Source: Candidatus Moraniibacteriota bacterium (lineage in GTDB: Bacteria > Patescibacteriota > Minisyncoccia > Moranbacterales > GWC2-37-73). From it: a stretch of DNA of 64,000 bases. Numbering within the stretch: the first letter of the stretch is position 1; the number at the start of each line of letters is the position of its first letter. This document shows positions 47,755 to 60,715 of this stretch, piece by piece. The stretch spans positions 116,003-180,002 of the forward strand of contig DAOOTD010000001.1 of NCBI GenBank assembly GCA_035390125.1, written 5' to 3'. Below the pieces are notes generated by a model. It made no database searches. It was given only the letters and a program-made list of their open reading frames with translations, and was not told where the DNA came from. The position numbers and the translations under genes were made by a program.

Positions 47755-47796
47755 AATTTTTTTATCTTAAATTTTTATAAAAAACTACTAAGCAAT

Positions 47797-49047
47797 TTAT
47801 TTAGTGTTAGGATAAATTGGAAATTTTTTGCATAAAGCAATCACTTCTTTATGCAGTTGTTTCAGTTTCTTTTCATTTTTATGGTTTTCAACTGCTTCCT
47901 TGATCCAGAAACATATTTTTTTAATTTCTTTTTCTTTCATGCCGCGCGTCGTCACAGCTGGAACGCCAATTCTAACCCCGCTTGGATCAAAAGGACTGCG
48001 GGGATCATCCGGAATCATATTTTTATTCAAGGTGATACCGATTTTATCCAAAGCTTCCTCAGCTTCTTTTCCAGTTACGCCCTTGGAACCAAAAACATCA
48101 ACAAGAACCATGTGATTATCTGTGCCTCCGAACATCAATTTAAATCCATGCTTTTTTAGTTCAGTTTCTAAAACCTTAGCATTTTTAATTATCTGCTTAG
48201 CGTATGTTTTAAATGACGGTTTTAAAGCTTCGCCAAAAGCCACTGCTTTAGCGGCTGTATTATTCATATGTGGACCGCCTTGAAATCCCGGAAAAGCTGC
48301 TTTATCAATAGCTTTAGCAAATTCTTTCTTGCACATTATCATTCCGCCACGCGGACCGCGGAGTGTTTTGTGGGTTGTAGTTGTAACTATGTCAAAATAT
48401 GGAACCGGATTTGGGATGGCTTTGCCAGCAATAAGTCCGGCAATATGCGCGATATCGAACATAGAAATAGCTCCAACTTTTTTGGCAATGGCTTGGAATT
48501 TTTTGTAATCAAGTTGTCTGGTGTAAGCCGAGAAACCGGCTAAAATAAGTTTCGGCTTATGCTTGATTGCCATTTTTTCCAGCTCTTCATAATCAATTTT
48601 TCCTGATTTGTCTGTTTTGTATCTGATAAAATTATAAATTTGGGCGGAAAGTGTAACTGGATGCCCATGAGTCAAATGGCCGCCATGTGAAAGATCCATG
48701 CCCAAAACTATGTCTCCCGGTTTAAGAACTGCGCTGTAAGCGATCATATTGGCTGGCGCGCCCGAATGAGGCTGGACATTCACGTGTTCAGCTCCAAAAA
48801 GTTTTTTAGCTCTTTCAATCGCTAAGTTTTCTGCAACATCAGTATATTTTTGTCCGCCATAATACCGATGGCCTGGATATCCTTCTGAATATTTATTGGT
48901 AAAAACAGAACCAAGTGCTTCCAAAACAGCTTCTGAAACATAATTTTCCGAAGCAATAAGTTCCATGCCTTCCTGCTGGCGCTTTAATTCGCCTAACATG
49001 CATTTATAAATTTGCGGATCAGATTTTTTTAGATTTTTGTGAATCAT
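47797..49047 (-). CDS. glyA: Serine hydroxymethyltransferase
   Basis: PLP motif [16 protein letters not shown] and overall SHMT length. Confidence 0.9.
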
Positions 49048-49054
49048 AATTTTA

Positions 49055-49465
49055 TTAATTTTTTATTTTGTTTTCTTTTATTGTTTCTGTAAATTGATTT
49101 AAAAAATATTGAAGCTTTTGAGAATCATGCTCTTTTTTTATGAGTTCCAAATCAGCGTTAAACTCATCAACTAATGTGTCGTATTTTTTCATTTGTTCCT
49201 TATCACTCAATTCTATAATTTTATCAATTACTTCGGGAAAAATCTCTACATTCTTATATTCTTCCCTGTAATATTTTTCATAATGAAGCATGGGCTTAAG
49301 TTCCGAAACACTTTCCGGATCTATCAAGGCAAGTTGTATCTGATCCCAAACATCTGCGGCATGATAAAGCAATTTTTGTTTAAAATAATTATCAAGGTAT
49401 TCCATTTTAGAACGGACCTTGAGTGATTTTTCTGATTCTGGGTTTATATTAGATATATTTTCCAT
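49055..49465 (-). CDS. Hypothetical protein
   Basis: 136-aa ORF tightly packed between glyA and rfbD. Confidence 0.4.
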
Positions 49466-50395
49466 TTATTTATTCTTTAAATAATCTTTTAATGCCAGTT
49501 TATAGTTTCTTAGTGGGTTGAGTTTAGTGTTTATAAGAATGGAAACATATGGCCTTTGAGCTGGACGCGGGAATTCATTTGAATTTACGGGGATAATTTT
49601 GGCTTTAATTTTGGCTTGCCTATACAATTCTACAACCGCCTCATACCATGTGCAAGCACCTGTATTAGAGACATGATATATGCCAAAAGGTTTTTTTGAT
49701 TCAATAATTTCCTTAGTTTTTCTGGCCAAGTCGGGAGCATATGTGAAACAGCTGGTTTCTTCGTCAACAACTCTGACTTCTTTCTGTTTTTTGCCTATTT
49801 TTAACATTGTGTCAAAAAAACTCTTCTTGGCATCCCTGGCTTTTCCTGGTTTGCCGAATAATTTTGAAAGGCGGATAATATAATAATTTTCACCTTTTTC
49901 CTGAACGGCATCTTCTCCCATTAATTTTGTCTTTCCGTATTTTTGGAGCGGAGCAGGAATTGCATTTTCATCAAAGCCTATTTGCGGAATAAAATTTTGG
50001 TGTAATCCGCATGACCCGCAAGAGCCGGTACATCCTGCTGGTTCAGTTAATTCAGGCATGCCGTTGAAAACATAGTCTGTTGAATAATGTACAAATGTAG
50101 CACCAATTTTTTTGGCAATTTTTGCCAGATATCCAGGCGCCTTACCATTTATTTTTTTAGCTTTTTCAAATTCAGCCTTATCTTTTTCGCATCCATCAAC
50201 ATTATTATATGCTGCCGCATTTAGAATAATTGCGGGCTTTAATTTTACAATTTTTTCTTGAACCTGTTTTTGATTGGTAATATCAATTTTCTCTTTATCC
50301 CAAGCTGCCACTTTATAATCTTTATCTTTTCTGAAAACAGAGACTAATTCCTGCCCAAGCATTCCCTTAGCTCCGATTATTAAAATTTTTTGCAT
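49466..50395 (-). CDS. rfbD: dTDP-4-dehydrorhamnose reductase
   Basis: MQKILIIGAKGMLGQEL Rossmann N-terminus. Sits in the rml gene context. Confidence 0.75.
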   Translation of the reverse strand: MQKILIIGAKGMLGQELVSVFRKDKDYKVAAWDKEKIDITNQKQVQEKIVKLKPAIILNAAAYNNVDGCEKDKAEFEKAKKINGKAPGYLAKIAKKIGATFVHYSTDYVFNGMPELTEPAGCTGSCGSCGLHQNFIPQIGFDENAIPAPLQKYGKTKLMGEDAVQEKGENYYIIRLSKLFGKPGKARDAKKSFFDTMLKIGKKQKEVRVVDEETSCFTYAPDLARKTKEIIESKKPFGIYHVSNTGACTWYEAVVELYRQAKIKAKIIPVNSNEFPRPAQRPYVSILINTKLNPLRNYKLALKDYLKNK

Positions 50396-50399
50396 AAAT

Positions 50400-51107
50400 T
50401 TATTTTTTACTATTTATTATTTCTTCCAAATAAGCCTTTGCATCTAACTGTTCTTCAAAAGTGTTTTCAAGTTCCAAGCTGATAATTGGCGGCAGAAAAT
50501 CCAAATAGTTTTTCATATAATCCAAGTCTTTGAGTTCATGCATCATGTGACTATCATAGTTTAAAAAACCAAGGAAAGATCTTATTGCAGAAACATGTCC
50601 CACTCCCACTCCAAACTTTCTGATTTTTTCTTCAAAATTGCGATAAGATTTCTTTCGGGTAATGCTTCCTTTAATAAAATCAGAGGCCCAGTGGGTAAAA
50701 TCTATGCAATATCCGGCAAACATTTTTATTTCATTGTCGGTAGGGATGTGTTCCTGATTCTCTAAATAAATCATGTCTTTGTATCTGGAAAGTTTTTCAT
50801 AGTCAAAATTATATTTTGACTTAAGCGGATGAACATTAAAAACTTGCGTTCCATATTTTTCAATAAAAAGATCTAACTCCCATGTTTCCATGTCACTGCG
50901 CAAGTGAACGTGAGGGATGCTTTTAATCGTGCTTTTTTCTAATAATTCATAAAGTTCCTGGCGTTCCTGAAGTTTAAGAAATGTTGGAAAAAGAGCAACT
51001 TCGGTTATATTGAATTTCCTACATTCTTCAATTTTATCTTTCCAATCAGAACCGGGAGTGGTTGTTAGCCCTAGTAAAATTTTGCTATTTCCCATATTGC
51101 TTTGCAT
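50400..51107 (-). CDS. Hypothetical protein embedded in the dTDP-rhamnose cluster
   Basis: 235-aa ORF overlapping rfbB by 23 nt. No family recognised. Confidence 0.4.
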   Translation of the reverse strand: MQSNMGNSKILLGLTTTPGSDWKDKIEECRKFNITEVALFPTFLKLQERQELYELLEKSTIKSIPHVHLRSDMETWELDLFIEKYGTQVFNVHPLKSKYNFDYEKLSRYKDMIYLENQEHIPTDNEIKMFAGYCIDFTHWASDFIKGSITRKKSYRNFEEKIRKFGVGVGHVSAIRSFLGFLNYDSHMMHELKDLDYMKNYLDFLPPIISLELENTFEEQLDAKAYLEEIINSKK

Positions 51108-52089
51108 AGTATTCTTTATAAGATCCTGATTTTATATTTTTCCACCAATCTTCATTGTTTTTATACCATTCAATAGTTTTAACTATTCCCTCTTCAAAAG
51201 AAACTTTTGGTTTCCAACCCAGCTCATTTTTAATTTTTGAAAAATTAATGGCATATCTCCTATCGTGTCCTGGCCGATCTTTTACATATTCGATGAAATC
51301 TTCACTTTTATCCATAAGTCCAATTATTTTTTTTGTAATTTCAATGTTTGGTTTTTCAGAATTTCCTCCGACGCAATATGTTTCTCCTATTTCCCCTTTT
51401 TTAATAACAAGATCAATCGCCTCACAATGGTCTTCAACATAAAGCCAGTCGCGGACATTCATGCCGTCACCATAAACAGGCACATTCTTGTTTTCCATTA
51501 AATTAGTAATAAAAAGCGGAATCATTTTTTCCGGAAATTGAAAGGGGCCGTAATTATTGGAACAATTGGAGATTGTTATTGGCAAGCCATAGGTATGGAA
51601 ATAAGCCCTGACCAACTGGTCTGAAGCTGCCTTGGAAGCGCTATAAGGGCTTCTAGGTTCATAAGGCGTGTTTTCACTAAAAGCAGGATCAAATGGACCT
51701 AAATGGCCGAAAACCTCATCTGTAGAAATATGATGGAATCTTTTGTTGCCGTTGTTTTTGGCTGCTTCCAATAAATTATATGTTCCAAAGACATTGGTCC
51801 GGACAAAATTTTCTGCGTCTAAAATGGAACGGTCAACATGAGATTCAGCGGCAAAATGAACAACCAAGTCAGCGTCTTTGATTAAATCATTAACTAAATT
51901 TTTATCACATATATCACCTTTGATAAATTTGTAATTTTTGTTTTTTTCTATCTCACGTAAATTTTCCAAATTGCCTGCATAAGTCAAAGCATCCAAATTA
52001 ATGATTTGATCATCGGGATATTTTTTCAGCCAATAATGAATAAAATTACTTCCTATAAATCCACATCCCCCTGTAACTAAAATTTTCAT
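51085..52089 (-). CDS. rfbB: dTDP-glucose 4,6-dehydratase
   Basis: MKILVTGGCGFIGSNF, catalytic YSASKAASD (YxxxK). Confidence 0.9.
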   Translation of the reverse strand: MKILVTGGCGFIGSNFIHYWLKKYPDDQIINLDALTYAGNLENLREIEKNKNYKFIKGDICDKNLVNDLIKDADLVVHFAAESHVDRSILDAENFVRTNVFGTYNLLEAAKNNGNKRFHHISTDEVFGHLGPFDPAFSENTPYEPRSPYSASKAASDQLVRAYFHTYGLPITISNCSNNYGPFQFPEKMIPLFITNLMENKNVPVYGDGMNVRDWLYVEDHCEAIDLVIKKGEIGETYCVGGNSEKPNIEITKKIIGLMDKSEDFIEYVKDRPGHDRRYAINFSKIKNELGWKPKVSFEEGIVKTIEWYKNNEDWWKNIKSGSYKEYYAKQYGK

Positions 52090-52097
52090 ATTTTTAT

Positions 52098-52553
52098 TTA
52101 TAAAATTTTATATAGTGAATCAGGATCTTTTTCCCATCTTATTTCATCCACTTCTTCGCTTTTATTTTTCCCCTTATAAAGCTTGTTGGGCAGATTGATT
52201 GACCAGGCATCCTTGTCTCCTATGCATTTATATCCATGAACGACTCCCGGCGGAACAATCACAAGAACAGGATTTTTTTCTCCCACTTCTATTTTCAAAT
52301 GTTCCCCGTTGGTTTCTGAATCTTCCCGCCTGTCCCAAAGATAAAGTTCAAAAGTTCCCGGACCTATGAAAACAAAGCAATCACTTTGGAATTTGTGTTC
52401 ATGCGGTCCACGGACGACTCCGGGTTTCGTCGAACTCACATAGCTCATCACTGGCTGATATCCATTAAGTTCATCCTGGCGGAATATTTCGCTAAGCCAG
52501 CCTCTTTCATCTTCATTTTTACTGATGTTTTTTATGACTATTCCCTTGATCAT
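52098..52553 (-). CDS. rfbC: dTDP-4-dehydrorhamnose 3,5-epimerase (cupin)
   Basis: RGPHEHKFQSDCFVFIGPG cupin core. Confidence 0.75.
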   Translation of the reverse strand: MIKGIVIKNISKNEDERGWLSEIFRQDELNGYQPVMSYVSSTKPGVVRGPHEHKFQSDCFVFIGPGTFELYLWDRREDSETNGEHLKIEVGEKNPVLVIVPPGVVHGYKCIGDKDAWSINLPNKLYKGKNKSEEVDEIRWEKDPDSLYKIL

Positions 52554-52653
52554 ATCTTCTTTATTTTTCTTTATTAAAGCTTTTTAATGATACTATGAAC
52601 GGATATTTTTGGCAAAATAAAAAGGCTGTCTTCGCGACAACCTTTTGTCTTTT

Positions 52654-53706
52654 TTATAATTCACCTTTCAGTAAGGCATTTAGTCTTTTCTTTAGCTTCT
52701 CCATGTCGGGTTCAGGATATGTCTTATTTATCTTTTTTTCTTCAGTTTTTTCCTGATTAGGTTCTTCCATGGTCTTATTTAATGAAAAATCGTCAGCGAC
52801 AGGAAGATTGTCAGGTGCATCTCCTTTACCCCCATTATATTTAGGGACTTCTGCAAAATTAGGATATTTGGTATTTTTTTCAAGAATCTTTGTCAGCTTT
52901 TTCATCTCCTGGAATTTACGGGTAAATATATTTCCCAGCTCTTCTTTAGGAGCGAGCTTTATCTCGGCAGGAATATCAGACATGTATAAATTTTCAAGAG
53001 ATTTCAATTCATCTTTTTCAGATTTTTTTTCTCCGGACTTATTTTGTAAATCAAATAAAAACTTTTCCTTAGATTCCTTGTAGTTTTCTATCAATAAGTC
53101 CTTTCTTTTTATTAGTGTATATTGGAAAATAAAAGCTAACAGAAATCCGAGAATTAAGCTTAGCGGAATCACACTTAAAATTCCGGCAATGCGGGGATGC
53201 GTGATCGGTCCTTCAACTGTGAGCAAATCAACATCCTTCTTGATGTCATAATAGAAAGCGGTGAAATAGAAAAGAGTTTCAGTAGTTTTTTCTGCCAGTT
53301 TTTCAGCATCATTTTTTTGTTTGGTGTTGATTGAAATTTTTATTAAAGAAGAATCTCTGCCTATTTTTTTGGTTGAAACCAGTCCATTCCAATAGTCTTT
53401 TCTTTCTGCCGATGATTTTCCGGCGGCAAAATCTTTCACATCGGAATTGTATTTCAGCAAGCGGTCGTAGAGAGCCAAAGTTTTTGGAAATTCGGAAACA
53501 TTGCGGATAATCTGGTTTTTTTGCTGAGCTGCAGTTTCCGATTTTGCATTTACTAAAATTATAACACTGGAAGTGTAGGTTTTGGACAGGCTGATGAACA
53601 GCAATAAAAATGAAAATGAAAGCACTATGCCTGCAACAAAAAATCTCAGAGAAAAATATTCCGAATCCACGCTGATCTTTTGCCAATATTGATTGATTTT
53701 TTCCAT
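52654..53706 (-). CDS. Hypothetical bitopic membrane protein (Wzz-like topology)
   Basis: TM near the N-terminus and a second TM at ~aa 175-195. Adjacent to the rhamnose cluster. Speculative chain-length-determinant-like. Confidence 0.4.
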   Translation of the reverse strand: MEKINQYWQKISVDSEYFSLRFFVAGIVLSFSFLLLFISLSKTYTSSVIILVNAKSETAAQQKNQIIRNVSEFPKTLALYDRLLKYNSDVKDFAAGKSSAERKDYWNGLVSTKKIGRDSSLIKISINTKQKNDAEKLAEKTTETLFYFTAFYYDIKKDVDLLTVEGPITHPRIAGILSVIPLSLILGFLLAFIFQYTLIKRKDLLIENYKESKEKFLFDLQNKSGEKKSEKDELKSLENLYMSDIPAEIKLAPKEELGNIFTRKFQEMKKLTKILEKNTKYPNFAEVPKYNGGKGDAPDNLPVADDFSLNKTMEEPNQEKTEEKKINKTYPEPDMEKLKKRLNALLKGEL

Positions 53707-53708
53707 TT

Positions 53709-53840
53709 ACCCTGTTAAATAAGATTTGAGTCTACTTTATCGTAGAAACAACTTATTTCTAATATATTTGCAATTTAACTTGTAAATTTTCCCCCTCTTT
53801 TTAATCTTAATTTTGCAGAACAAGATTATTTAACAGGGTG
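53709..53840. repeat. 14-bp perfect inverted repeat (ACCCTGTTAAATAA / TTATTTAACAGGGT) enclosing 104 nt, abutting the start codon of the 52654..53706 gene
   Basis: Read from the sequence. The left arm starts 3 nt from the ATG (complement) at 53704-53706. Confidence 0.6.
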
Positions 53841-53926
53841 AAAATGATTTTTTAGATGACTTGGGAGTATAGCAAATATACGCTATCTGTCAATAGCGTG
53901 AGCTTTTTTCAAAAATTGGCATAGAA

Positions 53927-53962
53927 AAAGGGCGGTCAGTTCATTTGAACTTCCCGCCCTTT
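53927..53962 (-). terminator. Rho-independent terminator for the 53980..54471 gene
   Basis: AAAGGGCGG-loop-CCGCCCTTT with a T-run on the minus strand. Confidence 0.6.
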
Positions 53963-53979
53963 GTTAAATTGTTTCGGGG

Positions 53980-54471
53980 TTATTTCCGTCTTCCTATGAA
54001 GAACGCAATTATAATAAAAGCGCCAATCATAGCAAGGACGAAGTAGAATAAATCTACTAATTTCCCCGCTATCTTATTTATCGACCGGCCCTGCTTTATT
54101 ACAGTTCCGGCAGTCGTGTTGTACGCGCCAGTCAGGTTGGATAACCAACCCTCATGTCTGTCTATTTTAACCGACAGATCCTTTAGCTGGCCGTCGACTT
54201 TCGCCTCGATATCGTTGGAAACTTCTTTTTGCGCTTCCAACTCCCCATTTATTCTGGCGAATTGACTATTTGTCGACTTTTTAAGATTAGTGACTTCAGT
54301 TTTCAGCTTTCTGAAGTCAGCAGGCGAAACCTCGGCCTCTGGAGGCGGAGGAGCTTCATATTGCGGACCTGCTATCACCTGGCGCTCTCCGTTAATCGTT
54401 ACGGCTTGTCCCATAGGAACAAACCCCACTACAACTGCAATGGCCACTAAGGCCAGAAAAGTCTTTTTCAT
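53980..54471 (-). CDS. Secreted coiled-coil protein with C-terminal TM anchor
   Basis: N-terminal signal/TM. PPPPEAE linker. C-terminal hydrophobic helix plus RRK. Confidence 0.5.
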   Translation of the reverse strand: MKKTFLALVAIAVVVGFVPMGQAVTINGERQVIAGPQYEAPPPPEAEVSPADFRKLKTEVTNLKKSTNSQFARINGELEAQKEVSNDIEAKVDGQLKDLSVKIDRHEGWLSNLTGAYNTTAGTVIKQGRSINKIAGKLVDLFYFVLAMIGAFIIIAFFIGRRK

Positions 54472-54533
54472 TTTTTCCTCCTCTTTATGTATTGAGTTCG
54501 GGCGAGCTTCCGAAGAAGCTCACCCGGTTAGTG

Positions 54534-55907
54534 TTACAGTTGCGGGACTTTCTCAACCCGCTTCTCCTTCGCAAACCGGTCGGCCGCATCCGGTCCATAA
54601 AGAACATCAATGCAACCTGCCCATAAGAAATAATCTTGGGCAATCAGCCGATCCGCTTCCGCTTGATTGGCACGAATATCATGCCCACGGAAGTAATTGC
54701 GTTCCGCGATCTTAAACTGTTCGATCGCCGAGTTGAGATATCGTTTATCTCCTGTACACTGGTACAGGTCAACATACGCTTCTGCCAACTTGGAGCGCAA
54801 CTGGAGGTTATTTAAGCACCATCTGGTGCACTCTTTGATACGCTGTTTCAACTCTTCAATCCGAGTAAAAATACTGCTCGGATCGCAAGCTTTCACTTGC
54901 GGTGCCGGAGCTGCCGGAGGAGGAACGACCTTAGGCTCAGGTTTCGGCGCCGGAGGCGGAGGGGGCGTACAAACATCAGGTTGGTACCCGACATTCGCAT
55001 ACGCTACCACCTTAACTTGGTATGCCACTTCTGTAAGGGAAAAGGCATTGCCGGTAACGGCTCCTAAAGAGCCTGACCCAGCACCTTTTCCGTCCACGCC
55101 GGAGCCAGTGAAACCGATTCCTAAACTGGAACCGGAATTATGCCTGTCAACCACAGAGTCCCAGTAAATTGCTACGTTAGTGGAACCGGTTTCTTCGACG
55201 GCCTGTAAAACCGTCTTAGCCAATACTTCATCTACTGGCCAGTTCCAGTCGCCAACGCCTTGGTAAACACCCAGTCTCCTAACTGAAGCGTTAGGGGCTA
55301 CATTTATAACTTTAATGATAGTGTTATCATCAATGCGATTATTGATTCGGCTACGTACCGAACCTTTAACTTTTTGAGAAGTCATCGCATTCCATATACT
55401 CCCGCGACCATCCATTAGCCGACCTGAATCGGCCATGGTTTTCAGCTCACCGTAGGTGAATTGGCTATAGTCTGGATCACAGACAACGCCTTTCCAACCC
55501 TTGGGCACTTCGGACGTCGGAGCGCCCACGAAGGCACTCAGTAACGGGGCAACTATGTGATTCGGCGCCTCGTTATTAATCAACATAGAGCTACTGTTAG
55601 CTCTGCTGTCGTTCCTGTTCATGTTCAGGTTGTCGTTCCTGTTCATGTTCAGGTTGTCGTTCCTGTTCATGTTCAGGTTGTCGTTCCTGTTGTTGATATT
55701 ATTTTGGTTATTGAGGTTATTAGCGTTGTTATTGCTAATATCCCCCACATTCGCACTGGCGTCGCCGCCAGTAGCACTGGCATCACCGCCGGTAGCGGTG
55801 GCGCGATTGTCATTCTCGAGTTCAATTTCGATGTCATCTGCGAACGCGAAGTTCGCAGACAGTACCATAATCACCGCGGCCAAAATGGCCAGAGCTTTTT
55901 TCTTCAT
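54534..55907 (-). CDS. Secreted repeat protein, paralog family A (N-terminal ATGGxASATGGxASA module, NRNDNLNM tandem repeats, Pro-rich linkers)
   Basis: Signal peptide. FADDIEIELENDNRATATGGDASATGGDASANVGDI shared with 56251 and 58643. SD AAGGAGGA. Confidence 0.55.
   Translation of the reverse strand: MKKKALAILAAVIMVLSANFAFADDIEIELENDNRATATGGDASATGGDASANVGDISNNNANNLNNQNNINNRNDNLNMNRNDNLNMNRNDNLNMNRNDSRANSSSMLINNEAPNHIVAPLLSAFVGAPTSEVPKGWKGVVCDPDYSQFTYGELKTMADSGRLMDGRGSIWNAMTSQKVKGSVRSRINNRIDDNTIIKVINVAPNASVRRLGVYQGVGDWNWPVDEVLAKTVLQAVEETGSTNVAIYWDSVVDRHNSGSSLGIGFTGSGVDGKGAGSGSLGAVTGNAFSLTEVAYQVKVVAYANVGYQPDVCTPPPPPAPKPEPKVVPPPAAPAPQVKACDPSSIFTRIEELKQRIKECTRWCLNNLQLRSKLAEAYVDLYQCTGDKRYLNSAIEQFKIAERNYFRGHDIRANQAEADRLIAQDYFLWAGCIDVLYGPDAADRFAKEKRVEKVPQL
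55608..55697. repeat. 24-bp tandem repeat x ~3.5 (gtcgttcctgttcatgttcaggtt) encoding (NRNDNLNM)n on the minus strand
   Basis: Read directly from the sequence. Confidence 0.8.
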
Positions 55908-56108
55908 GATTCCTCCTTGGCCTTTCGGGCCTTTAAATATGCTATTAAGTTGTGAAAGATCTTATGTAATTTATGCCGGAGCATATCTTACATATACCAT
56001 TATTTATATTTTTACAAGACTCCAAATCTTTATTATTACTTTTTTATGATTTGTGAAGTCCTGATTTAAATATAAACTTGTTTTCTAGGTACTAATTTAG
56101 AACATTAT

Positions 56109-56137
56109 AGTCTATCATATAATTAGGCTTTTGTCAA
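56109..56137 (-). promoter_or_regulatory. Promoter (minus strand) CTTGACAAAA-17-TAGACT for the 54534..55907 gene
   Basis: One of four near-identical promoter modules in this locus. Confidence 0.5.
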
Positions 56138-56250
56138 GGGGGTGGCTATAAATGGCTTATATTTGGCTATTATGGCTAAATCCCTATAAAGGAGGAGACT
56201 CAATGCTCTTTCAATGAGATTGAGCCTCCATTAACTTTCAAATATCTTAA

Positions 56251-57177
56251 TTAAATGAAATTAATTAAATATTTTTTTACACCAAATGAAGTGGCTGCTA
56301 GAGATATAACTGCAAGTCCGGCTAAAACATTGGTACCAGTTCCCGTGTTAGGTGCTTTTTTTTCACCAACGATAACCCTTGTTTTTCCGATTACATTGTG
56401 ATTCTCATCATATATATATTTGTATTTATATACATATGTTATTTTTCCATCATGACCATCGCGGCCATCTGTTCCATCATGTCCGTCATGACCGTCTGTT
56501 CCATCATGTCCGTCGTGACCATCTTCGCCGTCCTCCCCATCATGGCCATCATGACCCGGATCATCTATGTCTACATCAATCTCAGTATCAGTTCCAGTGG
56601 TTGAAGTTCCACCTGTTGTGGTTGAAGTTCCACCTGTGGCAGTGCTTGTAACTCCGGAAACACTGGTTGTGCTTGTGCTTGAAATCGTAGAAGCAGAATT
56701 TACAGTTGAAGTTGAAGAATTCATGCTGAAATTGTCGCTGTATGAAGTGCTGTCACTATAGCTAGAGTTTCCACTATTGTCATAGCTATGATCGGATCCA
56801 TGGTTGTCATAATTATCATGATCATGGCAACCCTCGCCTGAACGGTGGCAATAAGCTGAGGAATCACTATCATTGTTGTTCGTGTTTGAATTACTGTTCG
56901 TGTTTGAATTGTAATTCGTGTTTGAACTTATGTTAGTGTTTCTATTACTGATTGAATTGGAATTGTTTACAGTGTTGCTATTGCTGTTAGTGATATCACC
57001 AACAGATGCAGTGGCACTTCCGCCAGTGGCAGTGGCACTTCCGCCAGTTGATTCCGATTCATTTTCGTTATCTATGTTTATTTTAATGTCTGCAAACGCC
57101 ATATTGTTGGCAGCATAGAAAACGACTGCAGATATAACCGCTGATACTACGATAAAAATTATATTCTTCTTTGTCAT
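56251..57177 (-). CDS. Secreted surface protein, paralog family A, with (Gly-X-Asp)12 collagen-like His-rich repeat and C-terminal APNTG sorting-signal-like motif + TM + KKY
   Basis: Signal peptide. ADIKINIDNENESESTGGSATATGGSATASVGDI. Asn/Ser/Thr-rich. DPGHDGHDGEDGEDGHDGHDGTDGHDGHDGTDGRDGHDG. C-terminus KAPNTGTGTNVLAGLAVISLAATSFGVKKY. Confidence 0.6.
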   Translation of the reverse strand: MTKKNIIFIVVSAVISAVVFYAANNMAFADIKINIDNENESESTGGSATATGGSATASVGDITNSNSNTVNNSNSISNRNTNISSNTNYNSNTNSNSNTNNNDSDSSAYCHRSGEGCHDHDNYDNHGSDHSYDNSGNSSYSDSTSYSDNFSMNSSTSTVNSASTISSTSTTSVSGVTSTATGGTSTTTGGTSTTGTDTEIDVDIDDPGHDGHDGEDGEDGHDGHDGTDGHDGHDGTDGRDGHDGKITYVYKYKYIYDENHNVIGKTRVIVGEKKAPNTGTGTNVLAGLAVISLAATSFGVKKYLINFI

Positions 57178-57271
57178 ATATTTGGCCTTTTAGAGCCACG
57201 CAAGGCAAGGATTATTCCTATTTTGCGCCTTAAATTAAAAATAAATTAATTATTAAATTCTAAAACATTAG

Positions 57272-57300
57272 ATATTATCATAATATATTAATTTTGTCAA
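57272..57300 (-). promoter_or_regulatory. Promoter (minus strand) TTTGACAAAA-17-TAATAT for the 56251..57177 gene
   Basis: Conserved module. Confidence 0.5.
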
Positions 57301-57305
57301 ATCTA

Positions 57306-58157
57306 TTATTTCACCAATTCTGTCTTGATAATCAGCCTATTATAGGTTGTTCCAATCGGCCAGCAGGTCGACAAGGTTAGGACCGGACCATTTGCCGGAG
57401 CAAATATTCTTTCATCATCTGGAGAAGTGATAAATTTATCAGACACTCTGTATTGGTAGATAATAACTCTTCCATTTGCCTGGATGGTTTTAGCAACTAT
57501 AATATCCCCTATTTCCAAATCATTTAAATTTTTAAAGATATGATTGTAGTCGCCTTTTGCCCATAAATAATTACTTGAATGGCCGGAGACAACTGAATTT
57601 CCATTTTGTCCGAAAGAAGCAGTTTTCGGATAATGGTTTATTCCGTTTTCAAGGTCTTTCAACATGTCATCTTCCTTATCGCTTTTTGACCAGACTACTG
57701 GAGCAGCAATATTTATCTTAGAAATTTTTATTTCAACAAATGGTTTTGCTTCTCCCGGCGCATCCGGATCATATCCGTTTATTATTTCCTGCTTATCAGA
57801 ATATGCATCTCCATCAGTATCAGAGTTAAGAGGATTTGTACCGTGGACGTATTCCAAGTAGTTTGGAAGTTTGTCTTTGTCAGGATCATCATCCAGTCCG
57901 CTATTAGAATCGTTTAGTCCATTGCGGTTTTTCCATTCACTGTATGTTTCAATCGAAAAAGTTGTACTGCCCAAGCGGGTGCTTATGTCATTATTTTTGG
58001 CCACACTGGTAGCTTCTTTTTCACCATCAGTTACGATTGAATTTTTATTCGGGCTAAAATCAAGGTTTAGGATATAAAACAGAACAATAAAAATAACCAG
58101 AAAAAGAATCACTGACAATAGAAACTTTTTTAAATATTTTTTAATTTTTTCAGACAT
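57306..58157 (-). CDS. Sortase (transpeptidase) with N-terminal TM and Asp-rich putative Ca-binding repeats
   Basis: Catalytic TLSTCWP (TLxTC), His in VVSGHSSN, Arg in TTYNRLI. DTDGDAYSD / DDDPDKD Asp-rich segments. Confidence 0.8.
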   Translation of the reverse strand: MSEKIKKYLKKFLLSVILFLVIFIVLFYILNLDFSPNKNSIVTDGEKEATSVAKNNDISTRLGSTTFSIETYSEWKNRNGLNDSNSGLDDDPDKDKLPNYLEYVHGTNPLNSDTDGDAYSDKQEIINGYDPDAPGEAKPFVEIKISKINIAAPVVWSKSDKEDDMLKDLENGINHYPKTASFGQNGNSVVSGHSSNYLWAKGDYNHIFKNLNDLEIGDIIVAKTIQANGRVIIYQYRVSDKFITSPDDERIFAPANGPVLTLSTCWPIGTTYNRLIIKTELVK

Positions 58158-58194
58158 TGTTTTTAGATTATTGGATATTAAATGATAACTGCAT

Positions 58195-58223
58195 AGTCTA
58201 GCAGAAAATCAATATTTTGTCAA
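58195..58223 (-). promoter_or_regulatory. Promoter (minus strand) CTTGACAAAA-17-TAGACT for the sortase gene
   Basis: Conserved module. Confidence 0.5.
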
Positions 58224-58334
58224 GTATTTAGCCATTTTGGCTTTATTTAAAGCCAAAATAAAAGAATACGGTTTTTATTAGAAGCAAAAAGACCCAATAT
58301 CCTTATGGAAATTGGGTCTTCGCTGAATTTTATT

Positions 58335-58619
58335 TTAGTTTAGTATTTTCTTGCTTGCATTGGTTGCGGAATATAACTTTTCCATTGTTCGGTCTGCCAA
58401 ATACCTTTTAATTTTTTCTATTTTCCTTTCAGAAACCCCTGCATTTTTTTGAGCCTCCTCCATAACCTCCAAAAGATTATTTACTGCCAAAATTGCCCTT
58501 TCATGCTCATCTCTTATTCCCTTTTCTTTTCCACTCACATAAATAGAGTGGATTATAGGAAATACCGTCAAGATGAGTGCAATGAACAACATTATTATGA
58601 CATTATTTTGAGTTTCCAT
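58335..58619 (-). CDS. Small membrane-anchored hypothetical protein
   Basis: N-terminal TM. 94 aa. A hairpin AGACCCAAT...ATTGGGTCT lies downstream. Confidence 0.4.
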   Translation of the reverse strand: METQNNVIIMLFIALILTVFPIIHSIYVSGKEKGIRDEHERAILAVNNLLEVMEEAQKNAGVSERKIEKIKRYLADRTMEKLYSATNASKKILN

Positions 58620-58642
58620 ATCACCATGGGCTTAAAAAATAT

Positions 58643-59380
58643 TTAGCAACTAATGGGTAAATATTTTTTTATTCCGGTTATAATAGTCAACAGAGACATG
58701 ATTGAAATTACTGATAAAGCAAAAGCATTGCTTCCAGTTGCAGGCACTTTCCAATAGTGTCTGTGCCCGTCCCTATCAAATGTGAAATAGTGTCTGTGCC
58801 CGTCCCTGTCAATAGTATAATGATGCTCACGTCCATCACTATCTATGTCTATGTGGACATCTGAATCTTGATCAGTATAGGAAGTTCCGCCTGTTGTAGT
58901 TGAGGTTCCGCCTGTAGAAGTGCTTGAAACACCGGAAACCTGGCTTGTGCTTGAGCTCGAAGTTGAAGAACTAGAATTTACACTTGAACTTGAAGAATTT
59001 ATGCTAGTACTATTGCTATATGAGGTGCTTCTGCTGCAATTAGAACATGTGCTGTTGCTGTTATCTGAGTCATCATTGGAATTATTATTGGAGTTATAAT
59101 TTGTATTGGAATTATAATTAGTGTTGGAATTGATATTAACATTCCTGTTTGTGATTGAACTGGAGTTACTTACACTGTTACTATTGCTGTTGGTAATATT
59201 GCCAATAGAAGCACTGGCGCTTCCCCCTGTTGCACTGGCGCTTCCCCCTGTTGATTCTGATTCATTTTCATTGTCTATATGTATATGCGTATCTGCAAAT
59301 ACAATATCTGCAGTGCAAAACAAGGCAACGGCTAAAAAAGCTATACATGCGATATAAATTACATTTTTCTTATTTTTCAT
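58643..59380 (-). CDS. Secreted surface protein, paralog family A, with His-rich DRDGHRHY repeats and C-terminal VPATG sorting-signal-like motif + TM + KKY
   Basis: Signal peptide. ADTHIHIDNENESESTGGSASATGGSASASIGNI. HHYTIDRDGHRHYFTFDRDGHRHYWKVPATGSNAFALSVISIMSLLTIITGIKKY. Confidence 0.6.
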   Translation of the reverse strand: MKNKKNVIYIACIAFLAVALFCTADIVFADTHIHIDNENESESTGGSASATGGSASASIGNITNSNSNSVSNSSSITNRNVNINSNTNYNSNTNYNSNNNSNDDSDNSNSTCSNCSRSTSYSNSTSINSSSSSVNSSSSTSSSSTSQVSGVSSTSTGGTSTTTGGTSYTDQDSDVHIDIDSDGREHHYTIDRDGHRHYFTFDRDGHRHYWKVPATGSNAFALSVISIMSLLTIITGIKKYLPISC

Positions 59381-59421
59381 ATGTTTAATAAATGAATTTA
59401 GTTACCTTATTAGGATTGAAT

Positions 59422-59450
59422 AGGCTATCATAAAGGCCTGTTTTTGTCAA
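59422..59450 (-). promoter_or_regulatory. Promoter (minus strand) CTTGACAAAA-17-TAGCCT for the 58643..59380 gene
   Basis: Conserved module with a weaker -10. Confidence 0.45.
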
Positions 59451-59545
59451 GCATTCTTAGTTTAAAAGGTTCTTAATATAACAAAAACCTTTGCGTCATA
59501 CTATTAATACAACACAGAATTTTTTTTGTTTTTAGTATGCCTAAA

Positions 59546-60715
59546 TTATAATTGAGCAGTTATATTGATCTCTTGTCCGTTTCTATCAATAACAAATTCA
59601 ACCCGGCTGCCCTTTTTGTTTTTATTGATTAAATTTGAAAGAGGATTATCCAGATTAACTTCTTCTCCATTGACTGAAATAATGATGTCATTTATTTTAA
59701 TTCCCGCCAATTCAGCCGGTGATCCTGAAATTATTGCCAATCCTTGTTTGCCAGAGGGTGAATAAATCAAAGCCCCTCGATCACGATTTAATTTGTTTGT
59801 TATGGAAAATTCTTTGGTTATGGATATATAATATGCCCCAAAAAATGGACGATAATTCAATTCATTATTTACAGCCAGGCTTATTGAATTTCTGACAGCA
59901 TTGGAAGGGATTTGAAAATATTTATCCTGGCCATTTATATTAATCATGCCGATAATTCCTATCATATCTCTGCTGTATCCAACAACTGGCCCTCCTATAT
60001 ATTCTTTTTGATTTTTCAAATCATCTTCAAATACGCCTTCTAATTTTTCAGAAACTGCAACTGCCTTGCCTCCTAAATTAAAGTTTTTATTAATATGGCT
60101 TAAAAGTCCTGCCTCATATCGGTTTTGGTATTCACCGAATGAATTTCCTATAGCTATCAATTTTTTACCTGGACGTAAGCTGGATGAATCGGCCAATGAA
60201 ACTGTGGTTAAATTATTGGCATCAATTTTAAGGAAGGCTAAGTCTGTAAACTCATCGATGCCTATAAATTTTGCATCATAATGGCTGCCATTAAAAAGAA
60301 AAACTTTGTAATTTGCATCTTTTTCAATTATTGATGTGCGATAAGTGACGATTAATCCGTCGCTTGTTACTATTACACCTGTTCCGCTCCGATTCTCTAT
60401 CTTATTCTCTCTTGTGATAATATCCTTCTGATTTACTATTGAAACAATATTTACAACTGCGTTTGATGCTAAAGATGCCACCTCATTAATAGAATCATCC
60501 TCCTTTATGGTAACTTGTTGAGTATTGTTTATAATCGTCACATTTTCAGCTGCTCGATTCAAAAAATTTATACGGGAAAGATACTTATTTGTCCTGATAA
60601 AAGGAAGAATATGCTGGTCAAAATATACCCCGCCAATTCCGCCAATAAAAAAAACCAGGAATAGTATAGATATTCCCTTAGCAATTTTTCTTGGATTTTT
60701 CAAATAATTGATCAT
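59546..60715 (-). CDS. HtrA/DegP-like trypsin-fold protein with C-terminal PDZ, predicted catalytically inactive
   Basis: Trypsin-like region aligns to DegP, but TNNHVV reads TYRTSI (no His) and GNSGGPLV reads EYIGGPVV (Ser to Ile). The Asp (TDLAFLKI) is retained. PDZ: GSPAELAGIKINDIIISVNGEEV. Confidence 0.6.
   Translation of the reverse strand: MINYLKNPRKIAKGISILFLVFFIGGIGGVYFDQHILPFIRTNKYLSRINFLNRAAENVTIINNTQQVTIKEDDSINEVASLASNAVVNIVSIVNQKDIITRENKIENRSGTGVIVTSDGLIVTYRTSIIEKDANYKVFLFNGSHYDAKFIGIDEFTDLAFLKIDANNLTTVSLADSSSLRPGKKLIAIGNSFGEYQNRYEAGLLSHINKNFNLGGKAVAVSEKLEGVFEDDLKNQKEYIGGPVVGYSRDMIGIIGMININGQDKYFQIPSNAVRNSISLAVNNELNYRPFFGAYYISITKEFSITNKLNRDRGALIYSPSGKQGLAIISGSPAELAGIKINDIIISVNGEEVNLDNPLSNLINKNKKGSRVEFVIDRNGQEINITAQL

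What the first reader, a model, noticed from the sequence alone, without database searches (positions are those of the whole stretch)
56440..56560. Collagen-like (Gly-His/Glu/Thr/Arg-Asp)12 repeat in a bacterial surface protein
Twelve uninterrupted G-X-D triplets (GHD GHD GED GED GHD GHD GTD GHD GHD GTD GRD GHD) are encoded by near-identical 9-bp DNA repeats. Gly-X-Y periodicity may give a collagen-like or polyproline-II segment. The His/Asp content suggests divalent-metal coordination. It lies upstream of the APNTG sorting-signal-like C-terminus.
Basis: seen in the sequence. Interest (0 to 1): 0.55.

Follow-up and report, generated by a model that had tools for sequence, protein, structure and literature searches.

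The report
His/Asp Gly-X-Asp run in anchored protein
A small cell-wall-anchored surface protein of an uncultured Parcubacteria-type bacterium carries 12 real Gly-X-Asp triplets that formally look like collagen, but they are a one-off expansion of a histidine/aspartate-rich motif that its relatives have in non-collagen form, so it is more likely an acidic metal-binding spacer than a true collagen.

Summary
Residues 208-243 of a 308-aa minus-strand ORF (56251-57177) are 12 uninterrupted G-X-D triplets (7 His, 2 Glu, 2 Thr, 1 Arg in X), followed by GKI. They pass Pfam Collagen narrowly (29.5 vs 27.2 bits).

The protein is a sortase substrate. It has a signal peptide, APNTG plus a hydrophobic helix plus a KK tail, and a sortase gene next door. 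It belongs to a small Parcubacteria/Moranbacteria family of LPXTG proteins.

The DNA units are not near-identical. Wobble positions are saturated while the Gly and Asp codons never change, so the peptide pattern is under selection.

None of 21 relatives, including the in-genome paralogue, has a Gly-X-Y run. They carry a His/Asp/Lys-rich pre-anchor module, often with Dx[DN]xDG (e.g. DEDHDG). The run sits exactly at that HDG site, in an extra gene copy that no relative has.

The run has no Pro, net charge about -13, and no trimerisation domain except a 28-residue Tyr-rich hairpin. It has no homology to Scl1/Scl2.

Best reading: a lineage-specific, selected, acidic His/Asp spacer that probably binds cations. 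A triple helix is possible (about 25%) but untested.

Interest is modest.

The parts
56251..57177 (-). Gene for the 308-aa sortase-anchored protein ('query308'), stop codon included
   Evidence: ORF listing. The identical gene is present in 4 independent assemblies, with 0-1 mismatches over 4-7 kb.
57272..57300 (-). Promoter-like site (TTGACA-17-TAATAT with a TG extension) about 95 nt upstream of the start codon
   Evidence: Consensus scan. This is a pattern match only.
57091..57177 (-). Signal peptide, residues 1-29, ending in AFA before Asp30
   Evidence: Read from the sequence. AF2 predicts a helix at residues 3-24. The feature is conserved in all family members.
56992..57090 (-). Family N-terminal motif: alternating strand DIKINIDNEN plus the first 'TGG box' (STGGSATATGGSATASVGDI)
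   Evidence: Invariant columns in alignments A1-A3. The TGG box is a perfect 21-bp x2 repeat at 57008-57048.
56587..56991 (-). Asn/Ser/Thr-rich low-complexity region. It includes a Cys/His cluster (residues 109-133, 56779-56853) and a second TGG box (56597-56637).
   Evidence: Read from the sequence. AF2 pLDDT is below 50 across it. TRF repeats.
56557..56586 (-). Acidic alternating strand TEIDVDIDDP immediately before the run. It corresponds to (E/D)V(D/E)VD..DD in relatives.
   Evidence: Family comparison. BLASTP alignment to the L009 protein.
56449..56556 (-). The finding itself: 12 uninterrupted Gly-X-Asp triplets, residues 208-243 (12 Asp, 7 His, 2 Glu, 2 Thr, 1 Arg; no Pro)
   Evidence: Pfam Collagen match to residues 207-244. 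TRF period 9 and period 27.
56440..56448 (-). 13th Gly-X-Y triplet (GKI), joining the run to the hairpin
56356..56439 (-). Tyr-rich beta-hairpin TYVYKYKYIYDENHNVIGKTRVIVGEKK, residues 247-274
   Evidence: AF2 predicts strands 247-256 and 262-274 with pLDDT 60-68. It is the only ordered part of the mature protein. It aligns with the L009 and P0028 pre-anchor segments.
56254..56355 (-). Cell-wall sorting signal: APNTG (56341-56355), hydrophobic helix (56278-56340), KKYLINFI tail (56254-56277)
   Evidence: AF2 predicts a helix at residues 280-307. Relatives have LPATG/VPATG/LPNTG plus G(V/I)KKY.
57306..58157 (-). Sortase gene immediately upstream: TM segment, TSP3-like Asp-rich segment, then a catalytic domain with the TLSTC motif
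   Evidence: PF04203 E=3.2e-22 and PF18884 E=9.6e-4. TIGR01076 scores 39.8 against a cut-off of 39.35.
58643..59380 (-). Paralogue 'sub245' (245 aa, VPATG), the positional orthologue of the substrate gene found upstream of the sortase in all relatives. It has DIDSDGREHHYTIDRDGHRHYFTFDRDGHRHY where query308 has the GXD run.
   Evidence: 58% identity. Synteny.

Best explanation
**What the gene is.** It encodes a secreted, sortase-anchored, largely disordered surface protein. It belongs to a small family restricted to Parcubacteria/Moranbacteria-type (CPR) bacteria.

**Shared architecture of the family:**
- a signal peptide;
- an alternating Asp strand plus 'TGG boxes';
- a Ser/Thr/Asn/Gln-rich tract;
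- a pre-anchor module rich in Asp, His and Lys, often containing a Dx[DN]xDG calcium-loop-like motif such as DEDHDG;
- an xPxTG sorting signal.

**How the run arose.** In this one extra gene copy the H-D-G tripeptide of that module has been tandemly expanded. The result is a 36-39-residue, proline-free, strongly acidic Gly-X-Asp array with net charge about -13 if His is neutral.

**Shown here:**
- the array is native and old, because its synonymous sites are saturated and its codon usage matches the genome;
- Gly and Asp are under purifying selection while X varies.

**Inferred mechanism.**
- The array acts as an extended (polyproline-II-like), flexible, polyanionic His/Asp spacer that starts about 32 residues outside the anchoring point.
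- It binds divalent cations (Ca2+ through the Asp stripe, Zn2+/Ni2+-type ions through His/Asp) or titrates with pH.
- This lengthens and stiffens the wall-proximal stalk that carries the probably glycosylated Ser/Thr/Asn-rich part.
- Collagen-type trimerisation is not required for this role.
For: **Anchoring**
- The sorting signal is complete.
- The adjacent gene is a sortase.
- Synteny is conserved in relatives: HtrA, LPXTG substrate, sortase, p457, p163, Wzz-like gene, rmlC, rmlB.

**Family**
- An exhaustive profile search found only about 19 proteins. They are small LPXTG proteins of the same layout.

**Lineage-specific copy**
- No relative has a gene between the sortase and p457 (L016).
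- None of 21 relatives has a Gly-X-Y run of 4 or more triplets.

**Conserved property is composition, not Gly periodicity**
- In the 45 pre-anchor residues of relatives, His is 6.5% against a 1.6% background, Asp 13.9% against 5.5%, and Lys+Arg 20%.
- A strict Dx[DN]xDG motif occurs in 8 of 21 relatives. Shuffling gives 0.19 on average, with a maximum of 3 in 2000 shuffles.
- Four of these motifs end in HDG.

**Site of the expansion**
- With the run collapsed to one unit, the C-terminal part aligns to the L009 protein. DD..HDG lies exactly at the run (38% identity over 73 aa, E=2e-11).

**Selection**
- Changes at Gly and Asp first and second codon positions are zero.
- Diversity is 0.77 and 0.48 at their wobble positions, and 0.49 at X first and second positions.
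- Codon usage in the run mirrors the genome.

**Disorder**
- The AF2 monomer gives pLDDT below 50 for residues 24-245.

**Literature**
- Disordered Asp-rich 'condensed-charge' and Excalibur-like DxDxDG tracts bind Ca2+ and Zn2+ at about 100 uM (PMC8391695).
- Dx[DN]xDG is a recurrent Ca2+ motif (PMC3123361).

**Related tracts without collagen register**
- GHDGEDGEDGHDG-type tracts with register breaks exist in other small secreted proteins (P0008, P0014).
Against: - No metal binding was measured or modelled.
- The query itself has no strict Dx[DN]xDG motif.
- A purely charge-based spacer would not need Gly at every third position. Yet Gly is invariant over 12-13 units with no insertions or deletions, which is the signature constraint of a triple helix.
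- The run passes Pfam Collagen.
- G-X-D triplets, including GHD, GTD and GED, occur in many viral collagen-like proteins.
- The Tyr-faced hairpin next to the run cannot bury its aromatic face as a monomer. It could therefore oligomerise (inference).
Confidence: 0.5

Rival explanations
1. The 13 Gly-X-Y triplets form a genuine mini-collagen. Three neighbouring chains form a short triple helix of about 10 nm. The Tyr-rich beta-hairpin just C-terminal to the run nucleates it, or dense co-anchoring on the wall does. This gives a rigid trimeric stalk analogous to Scl1/Scl2. His protonation or metal ions may neutralise the Asp stripe.
For: - Pfam Collagen is above its gathering score.
- Gly is uninterrupted at every third residue and strictly maintained against saturated synonymous change.
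- The layout (signal peptide, variable region, GXY run, LPXTG-type anchor) parallels the Scl proteins as described in PMC8968730.
- 76 viral loci and many metagenome proteins carry G-X-D runs that Pfam labels Collagen, some with GHD triplets (P0009, P0011).
- The amphipathic Tyr-faced hairpin sits directly after the run.
Against: - The run has only 13 triplets, against 50-79 in Scl1/Scl2 (PMC8968730) and a median of 22 in the viral G-X-D runs.
- There is no Pro in X or Y. Pro is the commonest X residue of bacterial collagens.
- Asp fills Y in every triplet. Collagens usually prefer Asp/Glu in X and Lys/Arg in Y (PMC3368898).
- Net charge is about -0.31 per residue with almost no Lys or Arg, so three chains would repel each other.
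- From my memory of Persikov et al. 2000 (not checked here), His in X and Asp in Y are both low-propensity residues.
- There is no folded flanking domain. Viral runs have a median of 169 aa after the run, whereas here there are 28 aa and then the anchor.
- The hairpin also occurs in relatives that have no run (L009, P0028).
- The run is absent from all 21 relatives.
- Scl HMMs score 22 bits against cut-offs of 325-400.
Confidence: 0.25
2. The run is functionally neutral low-complexity filler. It is a replication-slippage product in a disordered linker and only adds length.
For: - The run is unique to one gene copy in one lineage.
- The gene is full of other tandem repeats.
- There is a recent 27-bp duplication inside the run.
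- AF2 predicts disorder.
Against: - Synonymous sites in the run are saturated and match genomic codon usage, yet 48 first and second positions of Gly and Asp codons carry no change. X positions do vary. Neutral decay would have broken the pattern.
- No length variation is seen among four independent assemblies.
Confidence: 0.12
3. The array is a contingency or antigenic-variation repeat. Its copy number changes rapidly to vary the surface.
For: It is a tandem repeat in a surface protein. Scl proteins vary in GXY number between strains (PMC8968730).
Against: - The units are only 68% identical at period 9, which is poor substrate for slippage.
- The DNA is identical in samples from JGI, ENA and Logan.
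Confidence: 0.05

Closest known systems
Scl1/Scl2 (SclA/SclB), the LPXTG-anchored collagen-like adhesins of Streptococcus pyogenes
   Same: Both have a signal peptide, a non-collagen N-terminal part, an uninterrupted Gly-X-Y run, and then a wall-proximal segment with an LPXTG-type sorting signal processed by a sortase (PMC8968730).
   Different: - Scl proteins have 50-79 triplets against 13 here.
- Their N-terminal V domain nucleates trimerisation. Here the N-terminal part is disordered low complexity.
- Scl runs are rich in Pro and in charged pairs. Here there is no Pro and Asp occupies every Y.
- There is no sequence homology: NF038329 and NF038330 score 22 and 20 bits against cut-offs of 325 and 400.
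Viral (phage and giant-virus) and Bacteroidota-type G-X-D collagen-like runs (Pfam PF01391, some with DUF4988)
   Same: - They share the triplet flavour: Gly-X-Asp with Asp in Y in 50-100% of triplets, and occasional GHD, GTD or GED units.
- They are 50-75% identical to the run over about 38 residues.
   Different: - Viral runs are longer, with a median of 22 triplets.
- Their X positions are mostly Lys, Arg, Gln or Glu. The His fraction in X is at most 0.19, against 0.54-0.58 here.
- They are flanked by folded domains (median 169 aa after the run) and are not sortase substrates.
The protein's own family: small Parcubacteria/Moranbacteria LPXTG proteins (e.g. P0012, which NCBI names only 'LPXTG cell wall anchor domain-containing protein')
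   Same: - The whole architecture is shared except the run.
- The genomic position next to the sortase and HtrA is also shared.
   Different: Relatives carry Dx[DN]xDG and His/Tyr/Lys-rich segments (DEDHDGHKETY.., DRDGHRHY x3, DIDKDGNRHY) instead of a Gly-X-Y array.
Acidic repeat stalks of Gram-positive LPXTG adhesins (Ser-Asp repeats of the Clf/Sdr proteins), and disordered Ca2+/Zn2+-binding 'condensed-charge' tracts
   Same: - Both have a short-period Asp-containing repeat placed just before the sorting signal, acting as a wall-proximal spacer (Clf/Sdr from my own knowledge).
- The paralogue gives weak compositional hits to SdrC, ClfB and SdrD.
- Asp-dense disordered tracts bind Ca2+ and Zn2+ (PMC8391695).
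   Different: - The unit is a tripeptide with Gly and His rather than a Ser-Asp dipeptide.
- There are 12 units rather than hundreds of residues.
- No homology was found, and metal binding was not tested here.

Membership tests
Collagen triple-helix repeat (Pfam PF01391) | Score above the Pfam gathering threshold | tested here: met
   29.5 bits against 27.2, E=6.3e-7, residues 207-244. The margin is narrow. The match rests on Gly periodicity.
Collagen triple-helix repeat (Pfam PF01391) | Uninterrupted Gly at every third residue over a run long enough to fold | tested here: inconclusive
   The 13 triplets have no interruption. They are far fewer than the 50-79 of Scl1/Scl2 and fewer than the median of 22 in viral G-X-D runs.
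Bacterial collagen-like proteins (Scl, Bcl and EPcl types) | Stabilising composition: Pro frequent in X, Thr/Gln/Lys/Arg in Y, or Lys-Gly-Asp/Glu charge pairs | tested here: not met
   The run has no Pro in X or Y, Asp in all 12 Y positions, and one Arg and no Lys within the 12 triplets. The usual preferences are described in PMC8968730 and PMC3368898.
Bacterial collagen-like proteins (Scl, Bcl and EPcl types) | An adjacent trimerisation domain (V domain, C-terminal globular domain or coiled coil) | tested here: inconclusive
   No Pfam or NCBIfam domain was found.
Bacterial collagen-like proteins (Scl, Bcl and EPcl types) | Actual triple-helix formation (trimer, CD signature, cooperative melting) | not testable with these tools
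   Only monomer AF2 was available. This needs CD, SEC-MALS or multimer modelling.
Scl1/Scl2 equivalogs (NCBIfam NF038330, NF038329) | Score above the NCBIfam cut-off | tested here: not met
   20.3 against 400 bits and 22.4 against 325 bits.
Sortase substrates (cell-wall sorting signal) | An N-terminal signal peptide, and a C-terminal xPxTG motif followed by a hydrophobic segment and a basic tail | tested here: met
   Residues 1-29, then APNTG 275-279, a hydrophobic segment 280-300, and KKYLINFI. Relatives have LPATG, VPATG or LPNTG at the same place.
Sortase substrates (cell-wall sorting signal) | A cognate sortase encoded in the genome | tested here: met
   The adjacent gene 57306-58157 matches PF04203 at E=3.2e-22 and contains TLSTC. 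Actual cleavage of APNTG was not tested.
CPR small LPXTG protein family (unnamed; P0012-like) | Shared N-terminal strand and TGG boxes, a low-complexity core, an acidic strand, a G(V/I)KKY tail, and a position next to the sortase | tested here: met
   Alignments A1-A3. The profile search retrieves only such proteins. Synteny.
Dx[DN]xDG calcium-binding loop | A strict Dx[DN]xDG linear motif | tested here: not met
   There is none in the query, which has DIDDPG followed by the run. The motif is present in 8 of 21 relatives against 0.19 expected.

The most novel reading that the evidence does not exclude
The (Gly-His/Glu/Thr/Arg-Asp)12 array could be a switchable mini-collagen on the surface of an ultra-small CPR bacterium.

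- At neutral pH it would be a repelling polyanion.
- When His is protonated, or when Zn2+/Ni2+/Ca2+ bridges the His/Asp stripes, three wall-anchored chains would zip into a triple helix nucleated by the Tyr-rich hairpin.
- This would stiffen or cluster the stalk, for example during host attachment.

If true, it would be a natural metal- or pH-gated collagen without proline.
Probability: 0.1. Interest if true: 0.65.

Novelty: new variant of a known kind. Interest (0 to 1): 0.3.

Why it matters
**What the case shows**
- A Pfam 'Collagen' hit can arise de novo. Here a three-residue piece (H-D-G) of a calcium-loop-like motif was expanded in tandem inside a disordered, sortase-anchored protein. The expansion was then kept by selection.
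- This is a caution for counting 'bacterial collagens' from domain hits.
- It is also a small, clean example of how Gly-X-Y arrays can originate.

**What it points to**
- It exposes an undescribed, conserved envelope gene cluster in Parcubacteria/Moranbacteria: HtrA, a small LPXTG protein, the sortase, a 'TGG-box' protein and rhamnose genes.
- The surface chemistry of these bacteria is almost unknown.

**If the run really forms a His/Asp triple helix**
- It would be an unusual proline-free collagen that responds to metal or pH.
- Such a collagen would interest biomaterials research.

Tried and rejected
- **Profile search with the N-terminal motif.** The alignment A2, searched against the 5.8-billion-protein index, gave no hit at E<=0.01. 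The motif is too short and compositionally biased.
- **Search with the C-terminal 65 residues.** No candidate shared enough words with the query.
- **Exact-sequence cluster look-up.** Neither the query nor the paralogue is in that collection.
- **Metagenome scan with a collapsed C-terminal query.** 600 pattern hits were found and none was confirmed. I used the sortase as the anchor instead, which worked.
- **Pseudo-trimer AF2.** Trimer modelling was therefore impossible.
- **AF2 monomer of the query.** It is uninformative about a triple helix (pLDDT 38).
- **AF2 of the neighbouring 457-aa protein.** Confidence was too low (mean pLDDT 45) to justify a fold search.
- **P0023 / L037.** The LPNTGTGT tail, the closest to the query's APNTGTGT, sits on a 553-bp contig with only a sorting-signal remnant.
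- **P0008 context.** The contig is 1.8 kb and uninformative.
- **Full-text search for GHDGHD-type peptides.** It returned only irrelevant strings, namely VNTR allele codes.
- **PDB sequence search.** It returned only generic collagen chains matched through Gly periodicity.
- **Rejected: recent transfer from a phage fibre gene.** Codon usage in the run matches the genome, and the run sits at a homologous HDG site of the family.
- **Rejected: a sortase-assembled pilin.** There is no Ig-like fold or pilin motif. The mature protein is predicted to be disordered.
Full report

Yes. The finding lies on the minus strand, inside a 308-aa ORF at 56251..57177.
- Residues 208-243 (DNA 56449-56556) read GHD GHD GED GED GHD GHD GTD GHD GHD GTD GRD GHD.
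- A 13th Gly-X-Y triplet, GKI, follows at 56440-56448.
- The 36 residues hold 12 Gly, 12 Asp, 7 His, 2 Glu, 2 Thr and 1 Arg. There is no Pro.
- With window frequencies of Gly 0.066 and Asp 0.055, such a run cannot be chance.

One part of the description is wrong. The 9-bp units are not near-identical.
- Tandem Repeats Finder gives 68% matches at period 9 and 84% at period 27.
- All four Gly codons and both Asp codons are used.
- Pairwise diversity is 0.77 at Gly third positions and 0.48 at Asp third positions, which is essentially saturation.
- It is zero at the first two positions of every Gly and Asp codon, and 0.49 at the first two positions of the X codons.
- Codon usage in the run resembles that of the genome (GAT 67% against 72%, CAT 86% against 76%, mixed GGN).
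- Only units 5-7 and 8-10 look like a recent 27-bp duplication, with two synonymous differences.

So the array is old and native. Its Gly-x-Asp pattern has been kept by purifying selection while X drifts among His, Glu, Thr and Arg.

**2. What gene is this?**

The ORF has these parts, in order:
- a signal peptide ending in AFA before Asp30;
- an alternating strand, DIKINIDNEN;
- two 'TGG boxes', STGGSATATGGSATA and TATGGTSTTTGGTST, each a perfect 21-bp x2 repeat;
- a long Asn/Ser/Thr-rich tract containing a Cys/His cluster;
- an acidic strand, TEIDVDIDDP;
- the run itself;
- a Tyr-rich segment, TYVYKYKYIYDENHNVIGKTRVIVGEKK;
- a sorting signal: APNTG, 21 hydrophobic residues, then KKYLINFI.

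Other evidence on the gene and its source:
- The gene immediately upstream (57306-58157) is a sortase. It matches PF04203 at E=3.2e-22, contains the TLSTC motif, and passes the generic TIGR01076 model. It falls below the cut-offs of the sortase class models.
- A TTGACA-17-TAATAT promoter-like site lies about 95 nt upstream of the start codon.
- The AF2 monomer model gives pLDDT below 50 for residues 24-245. It orders only a beta-hairpin (strands 247-256 and 262-274, pLDDT 60-68) plus the two terminal helices.
- The same gene, with 0-1 mismatches over 4-7 kb, is present in four independent assemblies from JGI, ENA and Logan. The longest is a 279-kb contig. No length variation of the run was seen.
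- The nearest sortase relatives come from genomes labelled Parcubacteria group, Candidatus Moraniibacteriota and Candidatus Paceibacteria. The source is therefore a CPR/Patescibacteria bacterium.
- dTDP-rhamnose genes (rmlA-like, rmlB, rmlC, rmlD), a ClpB-type ATPase, SHMT and CTP synthase flank the cluster. This is ordinary chromosome.

**3. Relatives**

A direct homology search hit only Gly-X-Asp runs in unrelated proteins. The one exception was P0012, a Moranbacteria 'LPXTG cell wall anchor domain-containing protein' of the same layout.

Using the sortase as an anchor, I recovered orthologous loci from genomes (L005-L010) and metagenomes (L016-L025).
- Synteny is conserved: HtrA, a small LPXTG protein, the sortase, a homologue of the 457-aa protein, p163, a Wzz-like protein, rmlC and rmlB.
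- In every relative the small substrate lies upstream of the sortase. In the window that position is held by the 245-aa paralogue at 58643-59380.
- No relative has any gene between the sortase and the 457-aa homologue.
- The 308-aa gene is therefore an extra, lineage-specific copy.

An exhaustive HMM search of 1.84 billion representatives found only 19 proteins at E<=1e-3. They were mostly small LPXTG proteins of this layout.

**4. Is the run conserved?**

No. Across 21 relatives, including the in-genome paralogue (58% identical over the first 200 residues), the longest Gly-X-Y run is 3 triplets.

What is conserved in front of the anchor is composition and a short motif.
- His is 6.5% against a 1.6% background. 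Asp is 13.9% against 5.5%. Lys+Arg is 20%.
- A strict Dx[DN]xDG motif occurs in 8 of 21 relatives. Shuffling gives 0.19 on average, with at most 3 in 2000 shuffles.
- Examples are DIDSDG, DIDKDG, DVDKDG, DDDHDG, DEDHDG and DTNHDG.

If the run is collapsed to one unit, the C-terminal part of the query aligns with the L009 protein (38% identity over 73 aa, E=2e-11). In that alignment ..DD-x-x-HDG.. lies exactly at the run, and the Tyr/Lys hairpin and anchor follow.

The array is therefore a tandem expansion of the H-D-G piece of a family-wide Asp/His module. Dx[DN]xDG is a recurrent Ca2+-binding loop (PMC3123361). Asp-dense disordered tracts bind Ca2+ and Zn2+ in the 100-uM range (PMC8391695).

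**5. Is it a collagen?**

Formally, yes: Pfam Collagen scores 29.5 bits against a gathering score of 27.2.

G-X-D is also a common 'collagen' flavour.
- Many metagenome proteins have it.
- 76 IMG/VR loci from phages and giant viruses carry such runs, 50-75% identical to this one.

The query differs from them and from characterised bacterial collagens in several ways.
- It has 13 triplets. The viral median is 22, and Scl1/Scl2 have 50-79.
- It has no Pro, although Pro is the commonest X residue in bacterial collagens.
- Asp fills every Y position, although collagens usually place acidic residues in X and basic ones in Y (PMC3368898).
- Net charge is -0.31 per residue, with almost no Lys or Arg.
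- His fills 54-58% of X positions, against at most 19% in the viral set.
- There is no folded flanking domain. Viral runs have a median of 169 aa after the run, whereas here there are 28 aa and then the anchor.
- The Scl1 and Scl2 models score 20-22 bits against cut-offs of 325-400.
- From my memory of the host-guest data of Persikov et al. 2000 (not checked here), His in X and Asp in Y are both in the low-propensity half.

Two points favour a helix.
- Gly is strictly maintained at every third residue, with no insertions or deletions. A mere charge spacer would not obviously need that.
- The adjacent hairpin has one all-Tyr/Ile face (positions 2, 4, 6, 8, 10 and 12 of KITYVYKYKYIY). A monomer cannot bury this face, so the hairpin could oligomerise or bind glycan (inference). 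However, the hairpin also occurs in relatives that lack the run.

Trimer modelling was not possible.

**6. Most likely mechanism**

Shown:
- it is a secreted protein carrying a complete sortase sorting signal, encoded next to a sortase gene (cleavage and wall attachment were not tested);
- the mature part is largely disordered;
- the run is a lineage-specific expansion of the family's HDG motif;
- selection acts on Gly and Asp.

Inferred:
- The run is an extended, PPII-like polyanionic His/Asp spacer. It ends 32 residues before the anchoring Thr, so it lies in or just outside the wall.
- It binds divalent cations or responds to pH.
- It lengthens the stalk that displays the Ser/Thr/Asn-rich part. 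That part is probably glycosylated, given the adjacent rhamnose genes.

I put this reading at about 0.5. A real triple helix gets about 0.25, neutral filler about 0.12, and a contingency repeat about 0.05.

**7. Comparison with known systems, and novelty**

- In layout the protein works most like Scl1/Scl2, but it is not a member of that family.
- The triplet flavour matches the viral G-X-D collagens, but the His content, the length and the context differ.
- In position and acidity the run resembles the Ser-Asp stalks of the Clf/Sdr adhesins (my own knowledge; weak compositional hits).
- A full-text search found no paper mentioning GHDGHD-type peptides.
- Nothing was found on collagen-like proteins in CPR bacteria. 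Sortases themselves are known to be common in CPR (PMC6744442).

I rate it a new variant of a known kind, of modest interest. The most useful lesson is evolutionary: a Pfam-positive 'collagen' has arisen from a three-residue piece of a Ca-loop-like motif.

Noticed in passing
window 57008-57048, 56597-56637, 59211-59253, 55753-55803: The 'TGG boxes' (STGGSATATGGSATA and TATGGTSTTTGGTST) are perfect 21-bp x2 tandem duplications in both LPXTG paralogues. They are 80% identical in the 457-aa protein. The TGGxAxATGGxA motif recurs in most family members examined and in other architectures (P0026, P0031, P0032). Perfect DNA identity in an otherwise diverged gene suggests homogenisation or DNA-level constraint. 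Its function is unknown.
   Followed up: partly
window 54534-55907 (-), especially 55607-55691: This 457-aa secreted protein shares the N-terminal TGG-box motif.
- It has a perfect 24-bp x3.5 repeat encoding NRNDNLNM units, giving an alternating Asn pattern.
- It has a Pro-rich linker and a Cys-containing C-terminal helical bundle (residues 340-448, pLDDT 65-88).
- It sits in a block of 48% GC within a genome of about 35% GC.
- It is conserved directly downstream of the sortase in relatives.
- It has no Pfam or NCBIfam family.
   Followed up: partly
window 57306-58157 (-): The sortase carries an N-terminal TM helix and a thrombospondin-type-3-like Asp-rich segment (DDDPDKDKLPNYLEYVHGTNPLNSDTDGDAYSD; PF18884 E=1e-3) before the catalytic domain. 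This segment alone is conserved in more distant loci (L013-L015, L033-L034). Enzyme and substrates may both be Ca2+-binding.
   Followed up: partly
window ~46957-60715; loci L005-L010, L017-L019, L023-L024: An envelope gene cluster is conserved across Parcubacteria/Moranbacteria genomes: HtrA-like protease, small LPXTG protein, (94-aa membrane protein), sortase, 457-aa TGG-box protein, 163-aa protein, Wzz-like 350-aa protein, rmlC and rmlB. In the window, rmlD and an rmlA-like gene are also present.
   Followed up: partly
window 56779-56853 (-), residues 109-133 of the 308-aa protein: There is a Cys/His cluster, YCHRSGEGCHDHDNYDNHGSDHSYD, inside the low-complexity region. The paralogue has CSNC, and the L009 relative has CGNCGDACDGC. 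These could be a second metal site or a disulfide.
   Followed up: no
window 58643-59380 (-), residues ~195-235: In place of the GXD run, the paralogue has three 11-residue units, D(S/R)DG(R/H)(E/R)H(H/Y)(Y/F)T(I/F). The first is a strict Dx[DN]xDG motif (DIDSDG).
   Followed up: partly
P0008, P0014 (L036): These are small secreted proteins from other metagenomes. They carry GHDGEDGEDGHDG.. tracts that break the triplet register, next to a coiled-coil-like segment. They show that His/Asp/Gly tracts occur without collagen periodicity.
   Followed up: partly
window 57272-57300, 58195-58223, 56109-56137 (-): Three very similar promoter-like sites (TTGACA, 17-nt spacer, TG-extended -10) precede the 308-aa gene, the sortase and the 457-aa gene. 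This suggests separate but similar transcription units.
   Followed up: no
L037: A 553-bp metagenome contig carries only a sorting-signal remnant (..KQLPNTGTGT..GVKKYSTKVK), the closest match to the query's APNTGTGT tail. It sits behind an unrelated ORF. It may be a decayed or chimeric copy.
   Followed up: partly
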